Source: Halocafeteria seosinensis (Eukaryota). Taken from it: DNA of 64,000 bases. The position numbers and the translations under genes are program-made. Numbering within the stretch: the stretch's first letter is position 1; every line of letters starts with the position of its first letter. Under the pieces are notes generated by a model. The model searched no databases. It worked only from the letters and a program-made list of their open reading frames with translations, and was not told the origin of the DNA. Of this stretch, positions 4,401 through 51,708 are shown in pieces. Location of the stretch: NCBI GenBank assembly GCA_001687465.1, contig LVLI01000277.1, positions 1 to 64,000 of the forward strand, written 5' to 3'.

Positions 4401-4764
4401 ACGAGAGGATCTCGGAGATTCCGCATGTAGACAGCAAACAAATGTTTCACTGGTGTCGGTCGAATTCACTTGACTCGAAGGGTTAAGAGGCTTGTCATTC
4501 AGTTCCTTCGCGGCGAAAGCAAGGTCTCGAGTAGGTTCTTAAGAGCGCACGGGAAGGGCTTGCATTGTTTGGCCGAGTAAGTGTGAGGCTGTCGTATAAA
4601 AGGAGGGGGGTGTTCTGAGACGAGAGAAAGGAAGAATCAGGGACAAAATTACATGTATCTGGTTCCACATCTCTGCTATTCTATGCTCACCCTTGTGGCT
4701 TTTGCCGCAGAACTGTATTGGACAGACTTCTTGTAGTGGTAGCGGAACGTGAGGCAGAAACGTG

Positions 4765-7700
4765 ATGAAATTCCAGCACGGCCAAGGAGATCTTCGCAGA
4801 GGCCGCACGGTGTCCGCTGGAATCGCGTTGGTCGCTGTCGTTTACGCTTTCCTGGCGATGACAGTTCCGTTGGTAGAAGCTGCGGCTCCAAAGAATAAAG
4901 TGCGCTTCGGAATACTTCTTCCCATCAAGGACTCGCTCTGTGTTAGTGGTATGCAGTATTGGATCACCGCGCAAAAAGCGAAAGAGGACTTTCAAGCGAA
5001 CCCAGATGTGGACTGGGAGCTGGAGTTGCTCCCATTAACAGCAGATACTTCGTTTGAAGCATGGAAGAGTAGCAGTGACTTTCTCGAGCTGGATCCATGC
5101 GATGAAGGTCAGGCGAACTGCAGCGTCCTTCAAGCTGGTTTGATCGGTCCACCCGAAACCGAGCCTACTCGGTTCGTCCAGTTTGTGGCACACACGAAGG
5201 ACTACCCGGTCTTGAGTTTTAGCGCTACAGGAAATGATTTGTCCAAGAATTTAGGAGGCAGTGTGTTGGATAAGCAGGACAAGGAGTTCTTCAGAGTCAC
5301 TTACACCGATAGTCTCGTTGGAGCGGCGCTGTGGAATGCGGTCCATCACTTCGGATTTGAACTTGTCTCGGTGGTTTACGAAGGCACTGCGTATGGCCGC
5401 TCGTTGATAGAGTCATTGGAGTCATTTGCCGCGTCTTCAGAAATCGATATTGTTACTTCTCAAGGCTTTGATGTAAACTCACCTTCATCAGTACGAGATG
5501 CACTGTCAGAAGTTGAAGAACGACGTGCTAGGATTATTTTGTTGTTGTCCTTTGGTAGTAATGCAGCGATGGTGCTAGACGAAGCACATAAGAAAGAGAT
5601 GTATGGCAAGGGTTGGAACTGGTTAGGAACAGACTGGGTTACCATGAATCTAGCGGACATTCCTTTCAGTGCTGCGCGCTGGCGCGACTCTTCTACAAAG
5701 GAGAAGCAAGAAACGAGCGACCGCATTAAGACGGTCATGGAAGGCGCTGTTGGAGTGGTTCCAGAGAAAGTGGAGGAATTAAATCGTTTTCCGCGTAGCC
5801 AGTATCTTCAGCAAAATTACTCAGCCTTCACAGATGAGCCACTCATTGGTATCCCTCCTTCGAATCTGACATGCAAGCCATTGCAGCGGTTTCCTTTCGT
5901 GGGCGGTATAAAGAACGCTGATATTTTTGTTCCTTATGTCTACGACACGGTGCGTGTGGCAGCACACTCTACGAAGCAGGTTCTACGTGAAAATTCTTGG
6001 GATGAAACGCACCGCGAAATCCGGAAAAAGATTATCCGTAACCTGGAAGAAACTAAAGTTAAATTTTCCCCAACTGATATCCCGATTTCGTTCGATGAAA
6101 ACCATGATAGGAGGAAATTACACCTTCGTTTGTCTAATGTTCAAGAATCTGAAGTCAAATTGGTAGCGGACTGGGAGCTCGCATCGGATATCGAAAGCAT
6201 GAATGACGTATCATGGGATGATTCAGGAGAATGGACGAATTGGAAGACGATTGTATGGCCGGGAGGATCCACTGGAATTCCGTCCGACCGAGTTATAGTG
6301 GACACAGAAGAGACCGCTTTTATAATGTCGGTCGTCTTCGTTGGTTTAGTGATCTCACTGATCATTGGAGTGTTTATACACAAGTTCCATATACACTTTA
6401 TTCCTGAATCAGGAGTGGTCATCTTGTTGGGAATTGCATTTGGATTGATCATCAGAGCTACGGCTGCAGATGAAACTGCGCGAAGTGCCCAGTTTGATGA
6501 AACCCTGTTCATGTTGGTTCTACTACCGATAATTATTTTTGAATCCGGGTATGCTCTGGATAAGCATCCTTTCTTCAGTCAACTGGGTACCATTATTACG
6601 TGCGCCATCGTAGGTACGCTGATCGTCACATTCTTGACAGCATTTGGCCTATGGGGTGTGGGAGAAGCAGGCTTATCGGTACCGCTTTCGATAGAAGAAA
6701 GTATGACGTTTTCTGCCCTGATAAGCGCCGTAGATCCTGTCGCCGTCCTGGCGACTTTTACTATCTTGCGCGTCGATCCTCGGCTAAACTCCCTGGTGTA
6801 CGGTGAAGCTGTAATCAACGATGCTGTTGCTATTGTTTTGTTCCGTACATTTTCAGAATTCATTACTAAAGAGATTGACTCTAGCTCTGTTGGAGAAGCC
6901 ATCGGCTCCTTTTTTGGTGTGCTACTGGGATCTGTTGTCATCGGCGCGCTCCTTGGAATGCTTGCAACATTTATTTTCCGCTTCAAGAGCATGCTGTGGC
7001 CGGGTGCACATCCTCCAGGACTTTTGCAGACTGCTATCCCCTTGTTACTGGCATATTTGTCCTTCGCTGTGGCAGAAGCGTTAGAACTTAGCGGTATTGT
7101 GTGCTCCTTGTTTTGTGGTATTATGATGAATCACTATATGAAGAAGGCCTTGAGTGAGGAAGGTGAGTTTCTCACAATGCGGGTGTTTCGATTGTTGGCA
7201 GTGCTTGCGGAATCCGGAGTGTTCTTTCTTATCGGTATGAATATTGTTCTTTACTCTGGTACGTAGTTTCAAATTGCTGTAGAAAGCACTGACTTTGTTA
7301 TGGCTTATTTACTTCTATGCAGGAGATTTCGACTTGAAGTTCTTTCTCTGGACTACTTTCTTCTGCCTGGCTACAAGACTGTTCCATGTGTTTCCCATTT
7401 CATTCATCCTTAACCTAGGAAGGAAAGAGAAAATTCCGATGAAATATCAAGCCGGTACGTAGACAGAATCATGCTGTTGTGCACGCTTAATAGGCAAATA
7501 ACCCCATCAATTTGCAGTTATGTATTGGGGGGGTGCTCTCCGTGGAGCGGTGGCTTATGGAACTGCAGTCTTGTTTCCTAGTCAGTATAAGGACTTGGTG
7601 GTAACTACTACTGCGTGGGTGGTAATGTTCACTATCTTCGTGAACGGAGGCTCGACCACGACACTTCTCGATAAGCTGGGCATACCGATGGGAGTTGAGC

Positions 7701-7996
7701 CCGAAGAAGAAAAAGATGAAGAGACGCGACACAGGCTCCGCGTAGGAATGACTCACCAGTCGGAGAAAGAATCAATTTTCAAAGGACTATTAGCTCGGTT
7801 AGATAGAGGTATTATTCGGCCATGCTTGCATAGCAGAGAAGTTCGCAGGAAACACCGGTACAGGGCAAACTCCCCAGAGGGAGATGCACATGATGCCGAT
7901 AGCAATGAGCCTCTGGCCGTCAACGAAGGCAACTCGCACCCCGCGATAGAAGCTAGCAAAGAGACGGGTAACGACGAATTCACTACACTGCACTAG
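4765..7996 (+). CDS. Venus-flytrap (ANF-receptor/type 1 periplasmic-binding fold) ectodomain fused to CPA1/NHE-family Na+/H+ exchanger; exons 4765-7258, 7323-7454, 7518-7996
   Basis: Signal peptide; VFT motifs GLIGP, PVLSFSAT, FFRVTYTD, YVYDTV, ISFDENHDR, IVWPGG; NHE motifs IPESGVVILLG, LLPIIIFESGY, ISAVDPVAVL, GEAVINDAVAIVL, LSGIV, GALRGAVA; both introns splice in frame. Confidence 0.9.
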
Positions 7997-8054
7997 TGGT
8001 TCCCACGCTAGATAGTTGGCGTGTCGTCCATGTTTAAGAAAAATGTACATAGCT

Positions 8055-11000
8055 CTACGCCCCTACGGTTACCGCTTGTGGCGCTCCGCTTGTGTTTGTT
8101 GCCTCCTGTCCGCTACGGTACGAACTTAGCCTCCTAGCAAAGCGGTTGTACAAAGCGCTAGACTTCGATATGCAACCGCTAACTTCAGCAATGATAGCAG
8201 AACGATTGTCGTTATGTTCACTTCGGGAGACGGCATCTAGAATCACATCGACCATGTCTATTGCTGTATCCTGATCAGATTCTTGACAAACGACAACTGC
8301 CTCGCGAGCAAACTCTTTGACAATGTCTAGATTTTCATCCTGGAGGAGAAGTTTCCATGTGGATCGACCGAGACGGCTACGGAAAAGTTGCTTTCGAATC
8401 CACCGAGTAACATTCTTGTAGCCGTGTTTTTCTAAACATGGTGAAGAAACAACGGCTATACATACGCTGGCAAATTCGTCCATACAGCTTTCCAAGCGGT
8501 CTAACGTTACTGAGGAGACAAGATGTGCAACTAATTGCAACAGATGGGACGCGAAAGCGGGAACGCAGGAATTCCCTCCACCCATTTCCTCGTTGCTTTC
8601 AAGATGCTCCCATGTGGGTATCGGTTGCAACAGCTCGGCCATATCAAAGTCTGCCACAGCTTTGAAAAAGTTGTCCACCCACTGTTCGGTCGGTATGTCG
8701 AACGACGTGCAATCAGAGAAGAAAGACAAGAGCGTCCCCATAGTCTCGTTTAGGGCTTTCCGTCTGCGTCTATCGGCAACAGAGGCTTTAGCATCAGAGA
8801 TGGCCGATCCACACTTTGCTAGAGAGTACAAGCCTGTAGAATCGAACCATGCAGCCAGTTCGGCGCACATTGTCCGCGCTTCGGTGTTCAGCACCCGGGA
8901 TCCATTATCTTCACCGACGTCAGATGTACTGTAACTGTAACGCAAGAGGCATTGGCAGAATACTCTTACAACAGTTCCGACAGTAATAAGGGGCTTAGAT
9001 GATTCCGTAGCATCAATATCCTCGATATGTCGAAGGCATTGAATGACAACGTTATGCATGCTTTGAACAATAGTTCCGCACTCCGATGTCACAAGAAAGT
9101 TCGGGTTGTAGTTGAGCATATGCTCAACAGCGTACCACATGCTGGCAACGTCAACTTCCCGTTCCCCTTTACCCCTTCCTTTCTTTCTTTTTGGTCCTTT
9201 TCCAGTAGTTGACGACAAGAACATGTCTGTTTCCGTGATGCAGCTTTGCAGAAAATCGTTTTCTGAGCCCCAACAAGAAAGTGCCTCAGCTAGGGGCAGG
9301 AGATCTCCAGCGAAGTGTCCTTTCTCGTCGAGCGCTATACCAGCAATTTGTTCTCTAACAACTGAGGCGATTTGCTCAGCGTTCTCTTCGGGCAGAAAGC
9401 CGGATATCTTGATCAGACAGTTATTTATCTCGCCACTCTTATCAACTCCTTGAAACACCGATATCCACTCAGACAGAACATCAGAGGTAAATGCAGTGTG
9501 TAGCTTCTCTTTTACTTCGCTGTTTTCGCCACTTTGCAGCTCTGAGGTAATGTTCTCCCAAAGGGCCACTATCGATTGCACGAAACCCTTCATCAACATC
9601 ACGTTGGAAACGTGCAATGGAGATGCATCGTTTCTTTGCCTCTTCCTAGCACCTTCTTTCTCTACCGCTTTGCCGATAGCTTTGTGAATTAAGAGGATCA
9701 GTTTGGTTACGGAAGGCACTGGAATATGTCTATGCAAGTTCTTGTATAGCACCAGCGTTGCTGCGGGATAGTCCGTAAGCGATTGAATTACTCGGTTAAT
9801 CAACTCAGCCCCGCCCGCATCCTCTGGATAGAAGGAAGGATGAAGCAATTTTACAAGCTGGTAACAAACTTGCTGATTTTCAGCATCCATCGCAAGACGG
9901 GCCATCAGTTCCTTGGTTGGAACAATCTGCATTGTTCAGCAAACAGCGTAAGATCTTGACAATTTCACACACCATTCCAAGTCGAAGTACTTGCCTCATA
10001 AAAGTGCATACCCTTGATGGATTGCACCCGCTGAAGCACTTTGATAAATTCGATGCGGACCTTATCGTTCTTGTCGTGGATGCTCTTCCAAAGAGTCGAG
10101 AGTAGCTGCTTCATCGTATCGTGAGTACATGCCTGGAGCCATTTTGGACACTCAGTTGACTCTCTGCAACAAGCTTATCGTTTTGTTAGTACTTACTTGA
10201 TCCAGTAGATATGCAAATCCTTCGAATACGGCTTGTCTCACATTCGGGCTATTAGAGTCATGAGCGCTTTCTGTGGTGAGCTGTTTCAACCACGTTTTTA
10301 TCGTTTGGGTTGGTAGAATTTCCCAAAAGATGGAAACTACTTTACACACACCATGCACAGCATGCTTTCTTATGTCGGCACTGCGGTCAAACAATAGCGC
10401 AGACAAGAAATCTATTTGAGTCTGCATCGTTTCATCGAATTCATCGGGTGAGGCCTTGACGTTTCCAAGAGGGAAAGCATCCAGAAATAGCAGTGTTGCA
10501 TTCAAGCGAACCTTCGCGTTCGGCGCTTCCAGTGCCCGCCACAGTATAGGAGAATATAGACGGCTGACAAGCTCGGATACCCCTTTGTGTGTCTTCTGCT
10601 GGGTAAAGTTCCAGAGAAACGTGCGAACGGCATTGAATGTTCCTTGTTTTTTGCAGTTGACTCCGCGAGCCATTAGATCCTGGATGCAGCTCTCCTCTAT
10701 TCTTTGTTTAATCTGTGGTTCCGCGCGGCTCCATGCTTTGAAGTAGAGATCTTGATAGGCATTGATATATGCCTTGGTAGAGTAGGGAATTTGATTCTTA
10801 ACGGCTTGATGGATGTCTTCCACGAAACCCTCACTTAGCAGGAGAAATTGTTCTAATACCTTGCGGTTTTCTTGAGTACGGAGGTACAACGGCGAAATAA
10901 AGCATCGAAGCATTAGTTCCCGTAGACCATCACTGCTTTCATCCTCCAAGTCAAACAAATCCAGAGCATCTTTCATTTCATACACTCGTTTTACGTCTGC

Positions 11001-11639
11001 ATTTTTGGCATTCTCTTCCAGAGATAACACTAGTAAGGCCGGCACTGTATGCAGGATAACGTTTTCCCTTCCAACCCTTCGTTGTTTCCACACGGTAGAG
11101 CAAATTCTCAGAATTGCATTTTGTAGCAATGAACCCTCTGGTCCTGCAAGATAGAAGAGCTGGTCGTGCAGGGTTGTCACAATCTCAATGAATTTTTCGC
11201 TCAGTGGCACCAGTGAGTTCTTGTTGACGTGAGCAGTGCTGCTTTCCGATTTATTTAGGAACGCTTGAAGAATGGAACAGAAGTTCCGTAGGAGCTTCAG
11301 ATCAGCCACAATGACATCAGTTTCTTCGCTTTCGTCTTGTTGCTGCTGCTGGACCATGCTATGCTCTTCCAAAGCATCCAGGAAGTTTTCTTGGTTGACG
11401 ACTGCCTTTACGACTTCCGAGACGTCTTTCCAGAATGCCTCTAATTCTTTGGAGCTAAATCCTGCCAGGAAAGCGTCCACATCGAATTTCGGTACTCCTC
11501 TGTTGTTTGTCTCGAAAAAGCCATGTAATTCTTGTAGCTTGGCGTCAGCATCTCCTTGAGGGTCCTCTGCGCAGCGTTTAGCGCAAGTTTTCAAGTCTTT
11601 ACGGAACTGCTTCCGCAGTTGTCCTAGTTCCTCTGTCAT
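8055..11639 (-). CDS. NCAPG2: Condensin II complex subunit G2; introns 10133-10196 and 9927-9994 (GC-AG)
   Basis: LMLRCFISPLYL, IEESCIQDLM, RLYSPILWRALEAPNAKVRLNATLLFLDAFPL, AHDSNSPNVR, IHDKNDKVR are typical CAP-G2 motifs. Confidence 0.9.
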
Positions 11640-11845
11640 GTCGCGCAGGTTACCAAGACAGTATTGATGCTTTTCTCAGGGTGATCACCTTTTGTTGTCG
11701 TTGTACCGTATCAATGACACATAACAATGGCATCTGTGGCTGCAGCAGCCGTTAAGCCAGTTTGTGAAGCTCAAGCGCTTGATAACCCTTGCCCCGTCAA
11801 TCCCCTCTTCCCACCTTTTTTGTCTTTTCTTCTTGAAGTCAACGC

Positions 11846-42549: not shown

Positions 42550-45500
42550 TCATTCTCCCTTAGAGGGAAGAAGCCGCTGAAGGCTGCCTCTTGCCACCTC
42601 CAGTTCCTTTCGCCGTCTCCGTGTATTGGGAGTAGCCACCTCTTTTCTGAAATCGTCATCTTCTCTAAGCAATCGATGGTGCTTTGATGGGCGGAGATTT
42701 TGGTCAATCTTGTCCATGGTCCTACTGCGTAACTTCCGTTCTTCCTGCTGCTGCGCCTCTAGAGCCTCCTGCAGTGTTGAGAATTCTCCTCTAGCTGCTT
42801 GGGCCGCCACCATGGTCGCAGCCTTTTGGTACTGATTGGTTCCAATGAACTCATTATTGGTCATGTCATCGGCAAGTGCTCCTTCTAATACGTCTTCATA
42901 TTCGATGGGTTTATCTTGATCTCGTTGTTCAGCTTCTTTAACTTCGTCTTCGGAATACGGCTGATAATTTTCAAACCCTCGAGTTGACGGCCTCCCCGAC
43001 GTGCTATGTCCCCCTGTCTGTCGCTTGTTGGTATCGGTGCTGGCCATGCTTTTCCGAGTTTTAATAGGACTAAGCACAGGACTTTGTTTAGACTGTTCGG
43101 AGGGTCCGGAAGTGGGCACCGAACTGTTCTTATCGGACTCATTAATGTGTTCCCATAACTGAGAAGACTCTCGTGCCACGGTCAGTTTACTTGCCGTAGC
43201 CCGATGCATCTGTAGATTGTATTCATAATTCCGCTTAGCTTCTGGAGAAACGATCCTGGAAGTGCCTTTCTTAGGTTTGCTGATATATTGCCAAGGTTTG
43301 ATCGGCTGTTTTAATGCGGAACGAAATTTCAAATGCTCCAGGAAACTGGAGCCAACAGGAGCAAGAGTTTGTTGTGCAGTACTCGTTGTGGGGCGCGAAC
43401 GTAAACCGCTCCTATCTAGAGCTTCTTCGAGCTGTTGTATGAGCTTTTCAATTTTTTCTTGCCTCGATGAGTTTTCGTGGTCTAATGTGGCTTGCGCTTG
43501 AGAAAAACTGTTATCTGAGATAATTTGTCTCAAGGCTTCAGCATTTTCCTCTATTTCCTTTAGTGTTGCTTGATCTCCTCGTACCTTGCTGGTGTCCAGC
43601 GTTTCGTACACTGTGGGTGGGATTCTTAATCCGGCAGCAGCTGTCTCTTCCAGCAGTGCACGTAGTCTCTTCTTCGACATTATGCTCAACGTTGGATCCT
43701 TTCCATATTGTGCTTCAAAGCCGACCTCCTTTCGAGTCGTCTCTTCAACAGGGACTTGCATTTTTGGATGCGATGTTTTTCGTATTTTCTTGTCTACAAC
43801 TGCGCTGCTCTCCCGTGTCAGGGACGCCCGTCGGTGATGCGAACGATCCCATGAAAGAGGAGATGCCTTTTCATTCTTCAGTTTCTCTTCTACTCCTGCT
43901 GTAGCCCGTTTACGAACTTCATCAACGTGTTGGGAAGTAGCAAGATCCTTCAATGCTTCTCGCTGCTGATGCGTGCTTCCCCGGCGACGTCCGAATGCGT
44001 GGCTTACTTTATCATCCATTGCCTCTTGTCGATGCTTCCGATCTTTCCTTGCGGATTTTCTAACTTCCGAGGCATGACTTGGGGAAAATATTAGGCTCTG
44101 TGCGTTGCCGAACGACGAAGACCCAAACTTGCCAACACCTGCCACTACATCGCTACTACTGTGCCTTGAACGGGGAGGTTTTCGAAGCGGGGAGAACAGC
44201 GGAGACTCTTCCCGTGTCAATCCCTTTTGGTTTTTTGAATACTGGGGATGATTATGTCGCGTCATCCATCCATTACACTGAGACTCATTCAGTCTTACCC
44301 ATTGCTCTCTAATCGATGCAGGAAGATACTTGAAGAAAGTGTCAGCCGTTATTAACACACATCGAACACTGCCTTTGGCACGAAGCGTCACTGGGGATAA
44401 CGAATCGTCTTTGACAAAGTTAGACCCCACTACACATGGCGGATGAAGCAGGGCTACGGAATCAAACCGTGTTGATCCACCGTCTGTCGTCTTGGAACGT
44501 ATTTTCAGCGAAGATTCTGTCGATTCGTTCGCTTTACGTGGACGCAAAACTTCTATGAACCCTGTCATAGCCACTACTATGTATGCGGGCGGCGCGAGAC
44601 AACGGATGATATCCGCTCCTGTCGGGAATTTCCCTAGCACAGTATGTTTAGCGATGCTCACCTGAACTGGATACTGCAGTTCACCAAAGCCAGGGGTATC
44701 CTTCAGGCTCTTAATTTTGGTCATGAGTGATTTCACCGCGGTATTTGTGTCTCCATCGCAAACAGTTTCAAGGAATATAGCCCGAGGTAGCATCAATAGC
44801 TCTACAGGTCCTTCGGACACGATGTTCACAGGACAGCTGTCACTGCGGACAACAAACTGCTCACCAAATATTTCGCCCGCATGCAACGTCGCGATAATGA
44901 GGTTCTCCTGGTCTCTGACAGAAACCATTCCAGATCGAACGACCGCCATACCTTCACCCTTACTTCCCTGCAATTAAACAACCGGGGTTAAAGTGGCCCA
45001 AGAGAATGAATTCTTGTCAGGACGTACAACATATTGAATTAAGGTGTTGTGTGCGTATCTTCGGACTCGTGCTTCGGCGATAAGTTGTAATTGCGTTTGG
45101 ATAGGAAGCGGTCTGAAGATTGTACTCTGTAGGATCAAAGAACAACGTGCATAGATTAAAAAGTGTAAACGTAACTACTCAGAGTGTGTTACCTTTCTCA
45201 ATATCTGCAAGACTGTTGCGAGCTTCCTCCTCTGTTTCCGTAAGTAGTAGCGCCTCATAGCTCTTCGCAGTAGCGCACAGGCTCTCGCTCGGGGAAAATC
45301 ATGGCGCGGCAACCGCGTCTTTGGTGTCGCGACATCGACGTCGAGCCCCGTAGAATGCCTGACAAAACCATCAACCCCATCCACGTCATCATATTGGCTA
45401 GTAAAGTTCTTTGGGGTCGTTAAGAACGATTCCTCCACGGCTAAATCTGTTGCAGAATTACGGCGTTGGCCACTACTGTCCCCTGTGGCACTCGGCAAGC

Positions 45501-46876: not shown

Positions 46877-47406
46877 GGTGATGATTTCTGCTTTGCAAGC
46901 GCTGTTTGACGAAGTTAATAAGGTGCAAAAAAGTGTCAATACGGGGCAAGAATACATTGGCCTGGAATCATTCAGCCAGGCGAATCAGCCTGAATGATTC
47001 AGGGACTCGGAGACCGTGCAAACAAATGTTCGACTTGAAGTGGAGGCCAAAACTAGGAAAGTTCTGCAGCCATGTATCCACTGTTCTATGGGACTCCATT
47101 GGGGTATACTTGAGTTTGTCGGTGTTGGTATAAATTAATTGGTGTCTAGATCGCGTCCTCGTTTTCCGTGCGTCTTGGATAGATGTGTCTTGGAATTTGA
47201 CAGGCTCACGACGTCCATCAGGCCTTTCTTCAAGACAAATCACATTATACAGGCTCCACGTGTGTCACTATATGCGTTCACTCTGGAGGGGGGCGAACGA
47301 TTGGTTGTTTATTTGCGAAGCTGCATGACTTTGCTTCAACTTCGGAAAGACCCAAGAAAAGTAAGTCACGTGGTTTTTTGAGGGACAACGAGGTTCAACA
47401 TCTGCT

Positions 47407-50400
47407 ATGCACTACCTGTTGTGTCGCCTTGATGCAGTGCTAACCGTAAGCGAAGTAGTGAATCACCTTAAAGAATTTGGGCAATGGATAGGAGAACCGC
47501 CTTTAAGGGAAGTCACGATATGTGCAGTAGTTGCGGTGGTCACTCTTGCTGTTGGAGTCGCCATGTTCCAAGGTACACTATCCTTCGGGAGGACGGATAA
47601 CACTAATTCCGCTGAGAACGAAGATCCGTTTCCCGAATTTTCGAATCAAGGACCTTGGTGGAGGCGACTGATATCCAAGTTCCACAGGCCATGGAGGACT
47701 GTGGAAATGGGACTTGGCTGGGATCGTGGAGATGACGACAGTATATTTGTCGGAGGAGAAATTTTTGTTGATGTGACTGCACCGAATGGCCACACCAGCC
47801 AAGATGAAGTTCAAGTGGTAAGACTTGAGGCAGATGGGGACAATTCTAACTGTACACTTCAAGGGCAAGTACTCACCGTTGTTAGTAGATGGGCATGGTC
47901 CGCTGAGTCAGAAACCCAGCAAAGTTTCAGAACCAGTGCGCTCGACGAAGTTGGAACGTATTTTGTTAGATACGTGGTCTTCCCAGATGGACGGCCAGAC
48001 AATGATATCCCAGTTATTAAAGAAGGAACACGAGAAGCTGGTTATACATTGGAGTCTCTTGGACCAGTGTTAGTTCGTTCGCCTGAACTGGCAATATCGA
48101 AAGCTGCAAGTTTAAGATGGGCGGAATCCGTAGAGGTAGACGTGAAAACACTCTCCAACCATCATGAAGACGATGCTGTGGAACTGGAGTCCTTAGGTCA
48201 TTCCTACACGGAGACTCCTCAGAGGTACGATGGCCCAGTGGGGGAAAGCGTTAGTACTAAGAAGATGCCCTTTCCAGACAAAAAGGAACAACATGGACAA
48301 CACTCTTTCCAAGCAAAGCTGGCTTTTACTGGGAAGGATGCGCCGCAAAGCCCGGGAAATTATCGCTTCCTATATCGTAGCGGTCGTTCAGGAAAGGTAT
48401 GGTCAGCGAGCAAAATCTTTAGAGTACATGGTCCATCTCTTGATGCCGTAGCGCCTGATACGGGAGCTACTTTAACTGCCTCCAATCCACGATGTGACAT
48501 GCCAGAATGTGGTCATGGTGTACTGTCTTGGGGGGCTCCACTGACAGTCACCTGCATCTCAAGTCAACACCATGGGAGCAATGACTCAATCATCCTTCGA
48601 CGAGGTCCCTGTCTCCCAACCCGCAACAGAAACAAACCTCTAATGTATCCAGTCACTCCTCTTGAATGGTTTGCTGGGGGCAAGAATGTAGCAGGTGAGC
48701 TATCCGAAGAAGAAGAAAACGCTTTACTTCAGGCCCGTGATACTGATCAAGAAGTCCAACTGCCTACGGGGAAATCTCACGTTCGTTTTAAATTCGGTAC
48801 TGCTTCGAAGCGCAAGGAAGAAGATGGGTACGCGGTGGTACACAAGCGTGGTGGTGGTTGCAGGCAACCAGGATTTTACTATGTACTTTACGTCTCCTCC
48901 CAGACGCGTCATGAAGAGTCGTGGTTTGGACAGAATCCCCCAAAAAAGATAATGGGATGTATAGGTCCTATTGTTGTAACTGGACCGGAGCTTTATCCCT
49001 GTGGGCATTCCATGTCCACAGTGCCTTCAACTACAAAATCATCTGTAGATGCGATGGTATGCTCATATTACGAAAGCATAATCCCTCAACCCTTTTCCCC
49101 TCTGATGCTGAGACATAACGACGAATCTAATGGTCTAGAAAATCGGCATGTGTGGTGGGGATCAGATATCACTGCGTTTTGTTTATGGTCGAAATTTCGG
49201 CACAGTCGACAAGATAGAATATCCTTGCAGCGGATTGCAGAGCTGCCAGTGAACGAAGTTGGCTCGCTTGTGGGTGGTCAAAGATCCTTAGACCGGAAGG
49301 AGACTTTAGAGTACTGCACCGCGAAATTTTTGGGGAAGACTACCACCGCTGGTTGTGATATTTCGGGATTAGGATTGCGAGACGAGGCTGGGAAGTTATT
49401 GTCACAGGTCACTCCTCTAGAGAAACATGGAGCGCTGACGACTGTGTCTTCTGTAAACTATGCCAGCAACGGCTTCGGTTCTTCTTCATACGACCAAAAA
49501 GTGAAGGCTAGAGTGTTTCCACACATGGAAAGTGCGTCTTCTGCCTCAATTAGCTGTGAAACTTCCGCGATTGTCCCATTTCATCGGGAAAAGGCTCCGT
49601 CGCTGTCGGGCGTCTATAGGTTCGTTTATGAGTTGCATGATCCAGAAGAGCGATGGGATACAATGTATTTCGGAAGTGCTCCATTCCTTGTCCGAGGGCC
49701 CGAAATGAGTTTGGGAGAAACAAAAGATGAGGATGATGATTCGCTCGACGTTTCTGAGGAGGTAGATCTCTCCACATTTTGGGGAGAGGCAGTTCCTGTC
49801 GGAGTACAGGCCTCTCCGTTTAGGAGCCCATCTGTCAAGGATTATATCGCATTGGTACCGGTTATCCGAAGTGGCCCAGAATCCAATCCTTATCGTTCTG
49901 TTGGAAACGTGCAGTTTTCAAATTACGGTACACCCATCAATGTTAATGACAAAGCTTCTTCCTTCCCCGTGGCAGTAAGCGTGCCGGATCCTCCCGGTCG
50001 AACTGACGATGGTGCATCTTGCGCTCTTCAAGTGTTACAAAGGGTGTTTTTTGAAGGTAGCAGGGCTCCACCACGACCTGGCTTATGGCAGCTCGTATAT
50101 TACGCTAGCCCCACCAACGGCTTCACAAATATTCCCCAAAAAATTCTTGACGGTCAAGTGTTGCGGGTCAGAGGGCCGAGTTTACGACTTTCGGTGGTAC
50201 CTCACACATTTTCGCCAACTAAGTCCGAAAGCACGTGGTTCCGATGGGGTAAAAGCGAGGATGAAGTAAATGACGAAGTAGCCAGGAAAGTGGCAGCAGC
50301 ATATGAAGATAGTGCCCCCATAGTATCGGTACCACCAAAAGTGAAAGTATCGTTTAACACTTCTCCCACTCATAATCAAGCCGACTGGATAGCGCTTTGC

Positions 50401-51708
50401 CGAGTGGATGGGGCACCGGATGATGCTATTAAGAACAAAGTCTTCAAGTTTGTTAATACTTCGACCCAGGGAGAATTCTGTTTTGCTGACTCTGAAGTAC
50501 CTTTTGAGCGGGGCGAATATCAGGCAGTCTACGTAAGGGGAGAAACTGGTCCCGGCATCTGGACTGCTATTGGCGTGAAGAACCAAGATCCTTCATCATA
50601 TATCCATACTAAACACTCTCTAGACCCCCGAGATGATGATTCCCCGAGACAGCAAGTTGCTTCACTTTATGATGTTATTGCCCGTAGCAAGGAAACGTTT
50701 AAGATTGAAACAGATCCTAATGGAAGGGCTTGTGCAATACAGGAACCCAGAAGTCACACTTCTGTGCACATTGACTTGAGGGGTACCCATTGCTCTAAGG
50801 ATGCCTCTGCGACAAGTGATGGAGCTAGTAGTAAAGGCGATGTATTGACTAGCTCATCCGCTGGTGTAGAAGTTTCAGCGGGAATCGCGAAGAACTCAAC
50901 TGGCGCTGAAGGTACGGCGAGTGATAGTAACGTCACTACGTGCACCTCACAGCACGGTAGTGCATCGCTACGGCCGATTTCTGCGGCAACCGGGATTGCG
51001 TCTGAAAATGGGAAGGATCTTAAGCAGACAGATATTGCTAGAAACCGAACCTCGTCGAGGCACAATGGTTCGAAGAGAACCAACCATGTAGGAGACCGTA
51101 CACAAACCTCTTTGAACGCCACTACAAAGGGGAGCTCTTCAGGAAATGCTATAGGGGGTGGGGTCGAGGCCTCAGTCAACGAGAATGGAACCGAATCTTC
51201 TAGCGTCACAAATGAGGGTAGCTCAATGAAGGAGCCGGCAACGACTTCAATCCCACTTCAGCGGAAACCCGAGAGTCTTTTGTCTGCTATTCAGAAACAG
51301 GGAGGGAAACCAGCTCGTAATGCTTCCTCAAATACAGTATTAAAGGCTCGAGGAGTTGGAGATGGCAGTGGTGGTGCAAAGGCCCCGGGCTTCTTGAGCG
51401 ATATTATGAAGCAAGGAGGGCAACCTGTGAAAGCCCGTGGACAATCTTCGAGCAAGGAAGGGAAACAGAATGAAGGCACCCGCCCTTCGCGAGCTCCAAG
51501 TTTATTGGACCAAATACAACAGAGTAGGGGAAAGCCGTCTCAGTTAAACTCACAGAAAAAACGCTTATCGGGAGACATAAGTTCCTCCCAAAAGAGTTCG
51601 CAGCAGAAAGGACCTCCAAAGAAGGGCCCATTTCAGTCCATATTGGAACGGCGAAAGCATATACAACCGGAATCCGAGTCCGAGGATGATAGCTCTGATA
51701 ATAACTGA
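47407..51708 (+). CDS. Membrane-anchored protein with six SKICH/Ig-like repeats and C-terminal WH2-like/central/acidic tail
   Basis: Intronless 1433-aa ORF; TM at aa about 37-55; repeats ending PGxYxxxY...VxGPxL; DWIALC motif; tail LLSAIQ/FLSDIM/LLDQIQ then ILERRKHI..SESEDD. Confidence 0.7.
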   Translation: MHYLLCRLDAVLTVSEVVNHLKEFGQWIGEPPLREVTICAVVAVVTLAVGVAMFQGTLSFGRTDNTNSAENEDPFPEFSNQGPWWRRLISKFHRPWRTVEMGLGWDRGDDDSIFVGGEIFVDVTAPNGHTSQDEVQVVRLEADGDNSNCTLQGQVLTVVSRWAWSAESETQQSFRTSALDEVGTYFVRYVVFPDGRPDNDIPVIKEGTREAGYTLESLGPVLVRSPELAISKAASLRWAESVEVDVKTLSNHHEDDAVELESLGHSYTETPQRYDGPVGESVSTKKMPFPDKKEQHGQHSFQAKLAFTGKDAPQSPGNYRFLYRSGRSGKVWSASKIFRVHGPSLDAVAPDTGATLTASNPRCDMPECGHGVLSWGAPLTVTCISSQHHGSNDSIILRRGPCLPTRNRNKPLMYPVTPLEWFAGGKNVAGELSEEEENALLQARDTDQEVQLPTGKSHVRFKFGTASKRKEEDGYAVVHKRGGGCRQPGFYYVLYVSSQTRHEESWFGQNPPKKIMGCIGPIVVTGPELYPCGHSMSTVPSTTKSSVDAMVCSYYESIIPQPFSPLMLRHNDESNGLENRHVWWGSDITAFCLWSKFRHSRQDRISLQRIAELPVNEVGSLVGGQRSLDRKETLEYCTAKFLGKTTTAGCDISGLGLRDEAGKLLSQVTPLEKHGALTTVSSVNYASNGFGSSSYDQKVKARVFPHMESASSASISCETSAIVPFHREKAPSLSGVYRFVYELHDPEERWDTMYFGSAPFLVRGPEMSLGETKDEDDDSLDVSEEVDLSTFWGEAVPVGVQASPFRSPSVKDYIALVPVIRSGPESNPYRSVGNVQFSNYGTPINVNDKASSFPVAVSVPDPPGRTDDGASCALQVLQRVFFEGSRAPPRPGLWQLVYYASPTNGFTNIPQKILDGQVLRVRGPSLRLSVVPHTFSPTKSESTWFRWGKSEDEVNDEVARKVAAAYEDSAPIVSVPPKVKVSFNTSPTHNQADWIALCRVDGAPDDAIKNKVFKFVNTSTQGEFCFADSEVPFERGEYQAVYVRGETGPGIWTAIGVKNQDPSSYIHTKHSLDPRDDDSPRQQVASLYDVIARSKETFKIETDPNGRACAIQEPRSHTSVHIDLRGTHCSKDASATSDGASSKGDVLTSSSAGVEVSAGIAKNSTGAEGTASDSNVTTCTSQHGSASLRPISAATGIASENGKDLKQTDIARNRTSSRHNGSKRTNHVGDRTQTSLNATTKGSSSGNAIGGGVEASVNENGTESSSVTNEGSSMKEPATTSIPLQRKPESLLSAIQKQGGKPARNASSNTVLKARGVGDGSGGAKAPGFLSDIMKQGGQPVKARGQSSSKEGKQNEGTRPSRAPSLLDQIQQSRGKPSQLNSQKKRLSGDISSSQKSSQQKGPPKKGPFQSILERRKHIQPESESEDDSSDNN

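What the first reader, a model, noticed from the sequence alone, without database searches (positions are those of the whole stretch)
4765..7996. Receptor-exchanger: Venus-flytrap ligand-binding ectodomain fused to an intact Na+/H+ exchanger
Seen: one uninterrupted exon (4765-7258) encodes a signal peptide, a ~460-aa VFT domain (about 4900-6290) and the N-terminal majority of an NHE, so the fusion cannot be a splicing-prediction artefact. Transport motifs look intact (PIIIFESG, SAVDPV, GEAVINDAV, LRGA). Known: VFT domains normally drive class C GPCRs, iGluR/GLR channels or receptor guanylyl cyclases, while NHEs are regulated through cytosolic tails. I know of no described VFT-CPA1 protein. Inference: a ligand-sensing Na+(K+)/H+ exchanger that couples an extracellular or luminal amino acid/ion signal directly to pH change. 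Both modules work as dimers, which makes allosteric coupling plausible.
Basis: partly seen in the sequence, partly recalled or inferred. Interest (0 to 1): 0.9.

Follow-up and report, generated by a model that had tools for sequence, protein, structure and literature searches.

The report
Flytrap-capped sodium/proton exchanger of flagellates
This spliced gene joins a Venus-flytrap receptor domain to a sodium/proton exchanger with intact transport motifs, a pairing kept in dozens of protist proteins, and it would likely let an outside or vacuolar amino acid tune proton exchange directly.

Summary
The fusion is real and conserved. One exon encodes Pfam ANF_receptor (E 1.9e-26) and most of Na_H_Exchanger. 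Spliced contigs from two runs cross the junction in one piece, and the gene model equals EukProt protein P0002, 1034 aa. I aligned 36 fusions in 27 groups under 50% identity; named carriers are Cafeteria, Platysulcus and Picozoa. Six residues matching NHE9's ion site and salt bridges are invariant wherever covered. This protein fits 6 of 8 positions of the published amino-acid-binding motif, but 4 of 29 members fit 3 or fewer. An invariant P-x-D-R lies 38 residues before the helix-2 motif in 32 of 36, while flytrap loops vary by tens of residues. Both domains share one history; some relatives lack the flytrap. Best reading (0.5): a ligand-regulated exchanger; binding, gating and location are untested. 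No description was found in six targeted paper searches.

The parts
4484..4576 (+). 5'-UTR exon (left end is where the contigs end, not a mapped start)
   Evidence: X2 record 4 and X4 record 8
4577..4710 (+). 5'-UTR intron, 134 nt, GT..AG
   Evidence: joint 4576-4711
4711..7258 (+). long exon; coding from ATG 4765; holds signal region, flytrap, linker and most of the exchanger
4765..4881 (+). predicted signal peptide or anchor, aa 1-39 (hydrophobic core 19-37)
   Evidence: hydropathy; full-length relatives have similar N-termini (22 listed)
4894..6264 (+). Venus-flytrap (type I periplasmic-binding) domain, aa 44 to about 500; conserved C59 and C370; three N-glycosylation sequons
   Evidence: Pfam; model pLDDT 90.1; Z 36.5, rmsd 2.6, 394 aligned to a chain of the mGlu2-4 entry 8wgb
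5158..5634 (+). predicted ligand-pocket positions T132, T155, R177, D182, V185, Y210, G211, D290
   Evidence: alignment to mGlu1; published motif
6256..6318 (+). linker W498-A518 with invariant P506-x-D508-R509 (6280-6291), 8 residues before TM1
6316..7675 (+). CPA1/NHE membrane domain, aa 518-928 (two introns inside); D657 6733-6735, E681 6805-6807, N685-D686 6817-6822, R850 7376-7378, R884 7541-7543
7259..7322 (+). intron, 64 nt
7323..7454 (+). coding exon, 132 nt
7455..7517 (+). intron, 63 nt
7518..7996 (+). last coding exon; LRGA motif, last helices, cytosolic tail aa 929-1034, stop TAG

Best explanation
This is a single-chain fusion of a Venus-flytrap domain and an NHE-type cation/proton exchanger, predicted to face the outside or an organelle lumen, that likely changes its exchange rate when a small ligand, likely an amino acid, closes the flytrap. 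Shown: gene structure, both folds, conserved ion-site residues, fixed linker length, shared history of the two domains. Inferred: (1) the flytrap is exoplasmic; (2) exchange is electroneutral Na+(K+)/H+, from the N-D motif and E-R pair; (3) the ligand is an amino acid; (4) closure acts through P-x-D-R and 8 residues on TM1, the dimer-interface helix in NHE9, or the lower lobe rests on the moving core and frees it; (5) the output is a pH or Na+ change at the cell surface or in a food vacuole of a flagellate.
For: Transport residues equivalent to NHE9 D215, E239, N243, D244, R408, R441 are invariant in 36/36, 35/35, 35/35, 35/35, 32/32 and 32/32 of the 36 aligned fusions that cover them. The mGlu1 residues S165, T188, D208, Y236 align with T132, T155, D182, Y210; D290 falls at the published spacing for D318. 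P0002 fits 6 of 8 motif positions, plus T for S; 12 of 29 members complete at all eight columns fit 6 or 7, in distant branches. P506, D508, R509 are invariant in 36 of 36. R509 to E548 is 38 residues in 32 of 36 and 39-40 in 4, by an alignment-free pattern too, while flytrap intervals have SD up to 30 residues and mean identity is 25%. Four further metagenome loci give 38, 38, 39, 39, one of them identical to P0112. Flytrap and exchanger trees of 31 members share 13 of 28 splits, Mantel r 0.75. In NHE9 the dimer interface is TM1 on TM8. SLC9C1 shows that an added sensor can restrict the NHE core (abstract).
Against: No binding or transport data. The motif Q is absent (1 of 32), Y is kept in 11 of 31, and 4 of 29 members fit 3 or fewer positions; the three named or Cafeteria-like proteins P0008-P0010 lack both Y and the last acid. 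Some motif positions may be structural in any flytrap, so the fit is not proof of binding. Linker residues 512-516 have pLDDT under 50 and vary in sequence; most of the 38-residue span is TM1 and its loop, which resist indels anyway. The best profile match among solved structures is the N-terminal domain of plant GLR3.4, a domain recalled as mainly for assembly and modulation. About 14 exchangers inside the clade look complete without a flytrap. TM1 belongs to the static scaffold, not the moving core.
Confidence: 0.5

Rival explanations
1. The flytrap does not sense; it is an assembly, trafficking or protective cap (as recalled for the GABA-B2 flytrap or glutamate-channel N-terminal domains) on a constitutive exchanger.
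For: Pocket decay in some members; flytrap tree is 1.6 times longer than the exchanger tree (30.6 vs 18.6); flytrap-less relatives nested in the clade; top profile hits GLR3.4 and GluN1 N-terminal domains.
Against: 12 of 29 members keep 6-7 of 8 pocket positions across distant branches; a mere cap would not obviously need an invariant P-x-D-R at a fixed distance.
Confidence: 0.25
2. The flytrap senses something other than an amino acid (Ca2+, Zn2+, protons, an osmolyte), or signals through a partner flytrap receptor or the cytosolic tail rather than through exchange rate.
For: Pocket residues differ between subfamilies; calcium-sensing and taste receptors score alongside mGlu receptors in sequence and fold searches.
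Against: This protein's pocket fits the amino-acid motif at 6 of 8 positions with correct spacing apart from one loop insertion; the tail has no recognised domain.
Confidence: 0.15
3. The flytrap captures a solute and hands it to a repurposed CPA1 domain, like a fused binding protein of a bacterial uptake system.
For: Fold match to bacterial Leu/Ile/Val binding proteins (LivK, Z 35.4, rmsd 2.6, 336 aligned); some members are automatically named branched-chain amino-acid binding proteins.
Against: The monovalent-cation site and the electroneutral salt bridge are invariant; the protein passes the cut-off of the eukaryotic NHE model TIGR00840.
Confidence: 0.07
4. Artefact: two neighbouring genes merged by assembly or read-through.
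For: The four runs are one study.
Against: One stop-free exon; spliced contigs cross the junction; 32 proteins from several sources pass both Pfam cut-offs; congruent domain trees.
Confidence: 0.01

Closest known systems
Intracellular NHE exchangers (SLC9A6/8/9; CPA1 family)
   Same: Best solved sequence matches are NHE9 (221 bits), then NHE6, then NHE1/3; same fold; same ion-site residues; JGI and NCBI name several members NHE8/Slc9a8.
   Different: Their N-terminus before TM1 is short (23 residues in NHE9, 84 in NHE1, removable in NHE1; passage) and control comes from the cytosolic tail. Here a 460-residue folded flytrap stands before TM1.
SLC9C1 (sperm exchanger) and SOS1-type exchangers with a cyclic-nucleotide-binding domain
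   Same: An NHE joined to a sensor module; in SLC9C1 a linked helix restricts the transport domain (abstract).
   Different: Their sensors are in the membrane or cytosol and C-terminal; different NHE branch (93 and 65 bits against 221 for NHE9). No outside ligand domain.
Class C GPCRs (mGlu, GABA-B, CaSR, T1R)
   Same: Same flytrap fold (Z 33.6-36.5, rmsd 2.5-3.8), amino-acid motif largely met; like GABA-B (recalled) there is no cysteine-rich domain before the first helix.
   Different: No 7TM domain; the effector is a transporter in the same chain.
Plant GLR and ionotropic glutamate receptor N-terminal domains
   Same: GLR3.4 is the best flytrap match of the family profile (126.9 bits; Z 35.3, rmsd 2.5, 377 aligned).
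   Different: No second ligand domain or channel pore.
Venus kinase receptors
   Same: A flytrap with a GPCR-like pocket joined to an unrelated effector and reported to bind amino acids (passage): the best precedent for reuse.
   Different: Single-pass tyrosine kinase of invertebrates, not a transporter.

Membership tests
CPA1 / eukaryotic NHE | Na_H_Exchanger and TIGR00840 above curated cut-offs | tested here: met
   205.9 vs 26.2 bits; 325.4 vs 251.25 bits
CPA1 / eukaryotic NHE | NhaA-type fold of NHE structures | tested here: met
   Foldseek prob 1.00, TM-score by target 0.75-0.88 to NHE9, NHE3, NHE1
CPA1 / eukaryotic NHE | Ion-site D215/D244, N243, helix-break R441, electroneutral E239-R408 pair (NHE9 numbers) | tested here: met
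   D657, D686, N685, R884, E681, R850
CPA1 / eukaryotic NHE | Measured Na+(K+)/H+ exchange | not testable with these tools
   needs a transport assay
NHE8 subfamily | Groups with named NHE8 proteins in a tree | tested here: inconclusive
   Automatic NHE8 names on members; the tree separates the fusions from named NHE1-3 types but held no row named NHE8 outside the fusion clade
Venus-flytrap (type I periplasmic-binding) domain | ANF_receptor above cut-off and bilobed fold | tested here: met
   model pLDDT 90.1, pTM 0.91; Z 36.5, rmsd 2.6, 394 aligned
Amino-acid-binding flytraps | 8-residue motif S-TS-R-D-Q-Y-GA-ED with set spacing | tested here: inconclusive
   6 of 8 exact, T for S, V for Q; one interval 21 instead of 13-14; family mean 5.0 of 8, range 2-7
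Amino-acid-binding flytraps | Measured ligand binding | not testable with these tools
   needs a binding assay
Class C GPCR | 7TM domain after the flytrap | tested here: not met
   Pfam lists only ANF_receptor, Peripla_BP_6 and Na_H_Exchanger for P0002; the membrane part matches NHEs
Glutamate-receptor channels (iGluR/GLR) | S1/S2 ligand domain and pore | tested here: not met
   residues 518-928 are the exchanger
SLC9C / SOS1 sensor-bearing exchangers | C-terminal voltage sensor and/or cyclic-nucleotide-binding domain | tested here: not met
   106-residue tail without Pfam match

The most novel reading that the evidence does not exclude
A new receptor class: a secondary-active transporter switched by an outside ligand, in which a class-C-type flytrap drives a Na+/H+ exchanger directly, with no G protein, channel or enzyme in between. 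It arose once, early enough to be in both stramenopiles and Picozoa (or moved between them), and turns amino-acid cues outside the cell or in the food vacuole into pH and Na+ signals in heterotrophic flagellates.
Probability: 0.45. Interest if true: 0.92.

Novelty: new variant of a known kind. Interest (0 to 1): 0.8.

Why it matters
Flytrap domains are known to drive GPCRs, channels, cyclases and kinases; NHEs are known to be controlled from the cytosol or the membrane. A flytrap wired to an exchanger would add a transporter to the first list and outside-ligand control to the second. It gives a one-chain system to ask how force on the scaffold helix TM1 controls an elevator transporter, and a template for chemically switched pH actuators. 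Cafeteria is a cultured carrier with sequenced strains, so localisation and ligand tests are within reach. Even if the flytrap is only a cap, an undescribed NHE subfamily hides under 'NHE8' and 'hypothetical protein' labels.

Tried and rejected
Flytrap homodimer prediction (aa 43-511, two copies): no verdict, score 0.00 against a mark of 0.32, alignment not used; no weight given either way. No RNA holder listed. No genome held for the window, so paralogues outside it could not be counted; the window holds no second flytrap or exchanger by my profiles. ESM Atlas: P0002 not held; P0009 gave no usable hit. Flytrap-only and alignment word searches returned only 3 and 4 proteins, too insensitive to find the flytrap's donor; its origin (GLR-like or GPCR-like) is unresolved, and top fold scores are tied within 1-2 Z. 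Prokaryotes: 0 of the best 80 loci (of 416 relatives) carried a flytrap hit; a weak blank, as patterns were exchanger motifs. Metagenomes: 5 of the best 80 loci (of at least 540) did. Neighbouring genes (lipase, EF-hand protein, condensin II subunit, ESCO acetyltransferase, helicase and others) show no functional link. The 'Symbiodinium sp. KB8' members were not counted as a dinoflagellate record: they are partial, on 1.8-2.5 kb contigs, in one 90% cluster with metagenome proteins, so a co-assembled organism is plausible (inference). Earlier scan notes: nothing. No AU test of the clade was run.

Full report
Observation. The frame 4753-7266 (+) has no stop and, from ATG 4765, scores above the curated cut-offs for ANF_receptor (aa 92-461, E 1.9e-26) and Na_H_Exchanger (aa 529-828, E 3.6e-45). 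Two short GT..AG introns complete the exchanger. Contigs of three coded runs skip exactly these introns; X2 record 4 and X4 record 8 carry the domain junction and the spliced joints in one piece, and also skip a 5'-UTR intron. The runs are one study, at most three samples, and not on record as RNA, so expression is inferred from the splicing. The joined coding exons give exactly P0002, a 1034-residue EukProt protein.

Family. The first search gave 10 clusters with both Pfam domains among 94 hits. A profile search of 50%-identity representatives listed its best 150. I scanned 41 of them, chosen for rank or long N-termini, and 22 passed both cut-offs. Four more hit my flytrap profile and carry the linker motif. 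These 36 form alignment A2 and fall into 27 groups at under 50% identity. Of 30 clusters looked up, most are unnamed metagenome proteins. Named carriers are Cafeteria roenbergensis/burkhardae (four records), Platysulcus tardus, Picozoa sp. COSAG05 and COSAG01, and partial 'Symbiodinium sp. KB8' records that I do not trust as dinoflagellate. Databases label them NHE8, NhaP-type antiporter or hypothetical protein. That the named carriers are heterotrophic flagellates is recalled, not from a call.

Exchanger. The best solved matches are NHE9, NHE6, then NHE1/3, and the model folds like them (pLDDT 83.1, pTM 0.78). The NHE9 paper (PMC7737618, passages read) names D215, D244, N243, R441 and the electroneutral E239-R408 pair. 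The equivalents D657, D686, N685, R884, E681 and R850 are invariant in every one of the 36 rows that covers them (32 to 36 rows). Selection keeps a working cation site, so this is not a dead transporter used as an anchor (inference).

Flytrap. Folded alone it reaches pLDDT 90.1 and matches mGlu receptors, LivK, GLR3.4, taste and GABA-B receptors at Z 33.6-36.5, rmsd 2.5-3.8; these are too close to name a donor. The family profile prefers GLR3.4, then GluN1. The alignment to mGlu1 puts T132, T155, D182 and Y210 on S165, T188, D208 and Y236, the residues that bind the amino-acid group (PMC2680970, passage). Against the 8-residue motif quoted in PMC12965686 (passages), P0002 fits 6 exactly, has T for S and V for Q, and has one longer loop; D290 sits at the allowed distance. 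Of 29 members complete at all eight columns (7 dropped for gaps), 12 fit 6-7, 13 fit 4-5 and 4 fit 2-3; sliding the columns gives means of 0.2-1.1 against 5.0, which shows register, not binding. C59 (22 of 24) and C370 (32 of 33) are conserved, and all three sequons lie in the flytrap, as expected outside the cytosol.

Linker. P506, D508 and R509 are the only invariant columns before the exchanger. From R509 to the helix-2 P-E motif there are 38 residues in 32 of 36 and 39-40 in 4; flytrap intervals and two cytosolic loops vary with SD of 11-55 residues. None of 144 other exchangers matched the strict pattern; one of them, P0122, is a truncated fusion with the same spacing and a variant helix-2 motif (read by eye). 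Only 8 residues separate R509 from TM1. In NHE9, TM1 packs on TM8 of the partner and forms the dimer interface, and the authors suggest control through oligomer state. Against rigid coupling: those 8 residues vary in sequence, and 512-516 have pLDDT under 50.

History. In a tree of 185 exchanger domains (P0144 dropped as too short; profile-aligned, LG+G4, quick search), 35 fusions and 27 other rows form one branch, FastTree 0.93, SH-aLRT 88, not starred. I defined that group from the first tree, so the second is not independent. Of the 27, 11 begin at or inside the exchanger, 1 is the truncated fusion, 1 is unclear, and 14 look complete without a flytrap, 6 of them on a long branch; missed upstream exons are possible. 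Nine unfused rows nest with starred support beside fused ones, which points to loss. Separate flytrap and exchanger trees of 31 members (5 dropped as short) share 13 of 28 splits, Mantel r 0.75, p 0.001: the two domains have been inherited together. One origin is the simplest reading, not proven.

Mechanism. I commit, at 0.5, to a ligand-regulated exchanger: an amino acid outside the cell or in a vacuole closes the flytrap, and the short fixed linker passes this to the TM1 scaffold or lifts a block on the core. Every functional step is inferred. The cap reading (0.25) is the main rival, helped by pocket decay and flytrap loss. The nearest working analogies are SLC9C1 (PMC10620092, abstract and outline only) and Venus kinase receptors. 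It is a member of CPA1/NHE by every sequence feature tested, and not a member of class C GPCRs, glutamate channels or SLC9C.

Novelty. Six searches aimed at the fusion found no description: flytrap + exchanger + protist, 1 paper, on a different protein; the two Pfam names, 0; CPA architecture terms, 1 paper with no mention of exchangers; flytrap + SLC9 terms, 10 papers unrelated by title and abstract start; binding protein + antiporter, 0; the two Pfam numbers, 1 C. elegans survey seen only as a listing. A search on the named taxa gave 0. Two papers on a related bicosoecid, seen as passages or term counts, mention only SOS1-like antiporters or none (PMC5447177; bioRxiv 10.64898/2026.06.25.734631). 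The library lacks most subscription papers, and I read no supplements; annotation tables there could list the architecture.

Verdict. Real, spliced, conserved, apparently undescribed; function untested. Interest 0.8.

Noticed in passing
proteins P0204 (915 aa) and P0229 (761 aa): NPC1_N (Niemann-Pick C1 N-terminal, sterol-binding as recalled) domain fused before an NHE; both pass the Pfam cut-off, and they branch next to the flytrap clade (starred set of 69 rows). A second luminal-sensor exchanger architecture.
   Followed up: partly
protein P0195 (714 aa): Cysteine-rich EGF/laminin-like stretch (below cut-off) before an NHE.
   Followed up: no
protein P0183 (678 aa): About 190 N-terminal residues before an NHE with several histidines, looking by eye like a Cu/Zn-dismutase-type fold (recalled); no Pfam hit.
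   Followed up: no
proteins P0007-P0011, P0106-P0115: Large low-complexity insertions (up to 231 residues) in one cytosolic loop of the exchanger in several subfamilies; absent from the window's protein.
   Followed up: no
window 7996-8300 and 8055-11675 (-): Spliced contigs of the fusion gene run on past the stop into the convergent condensin II subunit gene, 58 nt away; overlapping 3' ends are possible, but contigs cannot show it.
   Followed up: no
window 47365-51708 (+): 1447-aa open frame with no Pfam match at E 1e-4.
   Followed up: no
window 42550-44973 (-): 807-aa frame starting in a cyclic-nucleotide-binding domain; rest unassigned.
   Followed up: no
window 5736, 5806, 6480, 6813, 7765, 7771: Single-letter differences between runs within the gene, consistent with alleles.
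   Followed up: no
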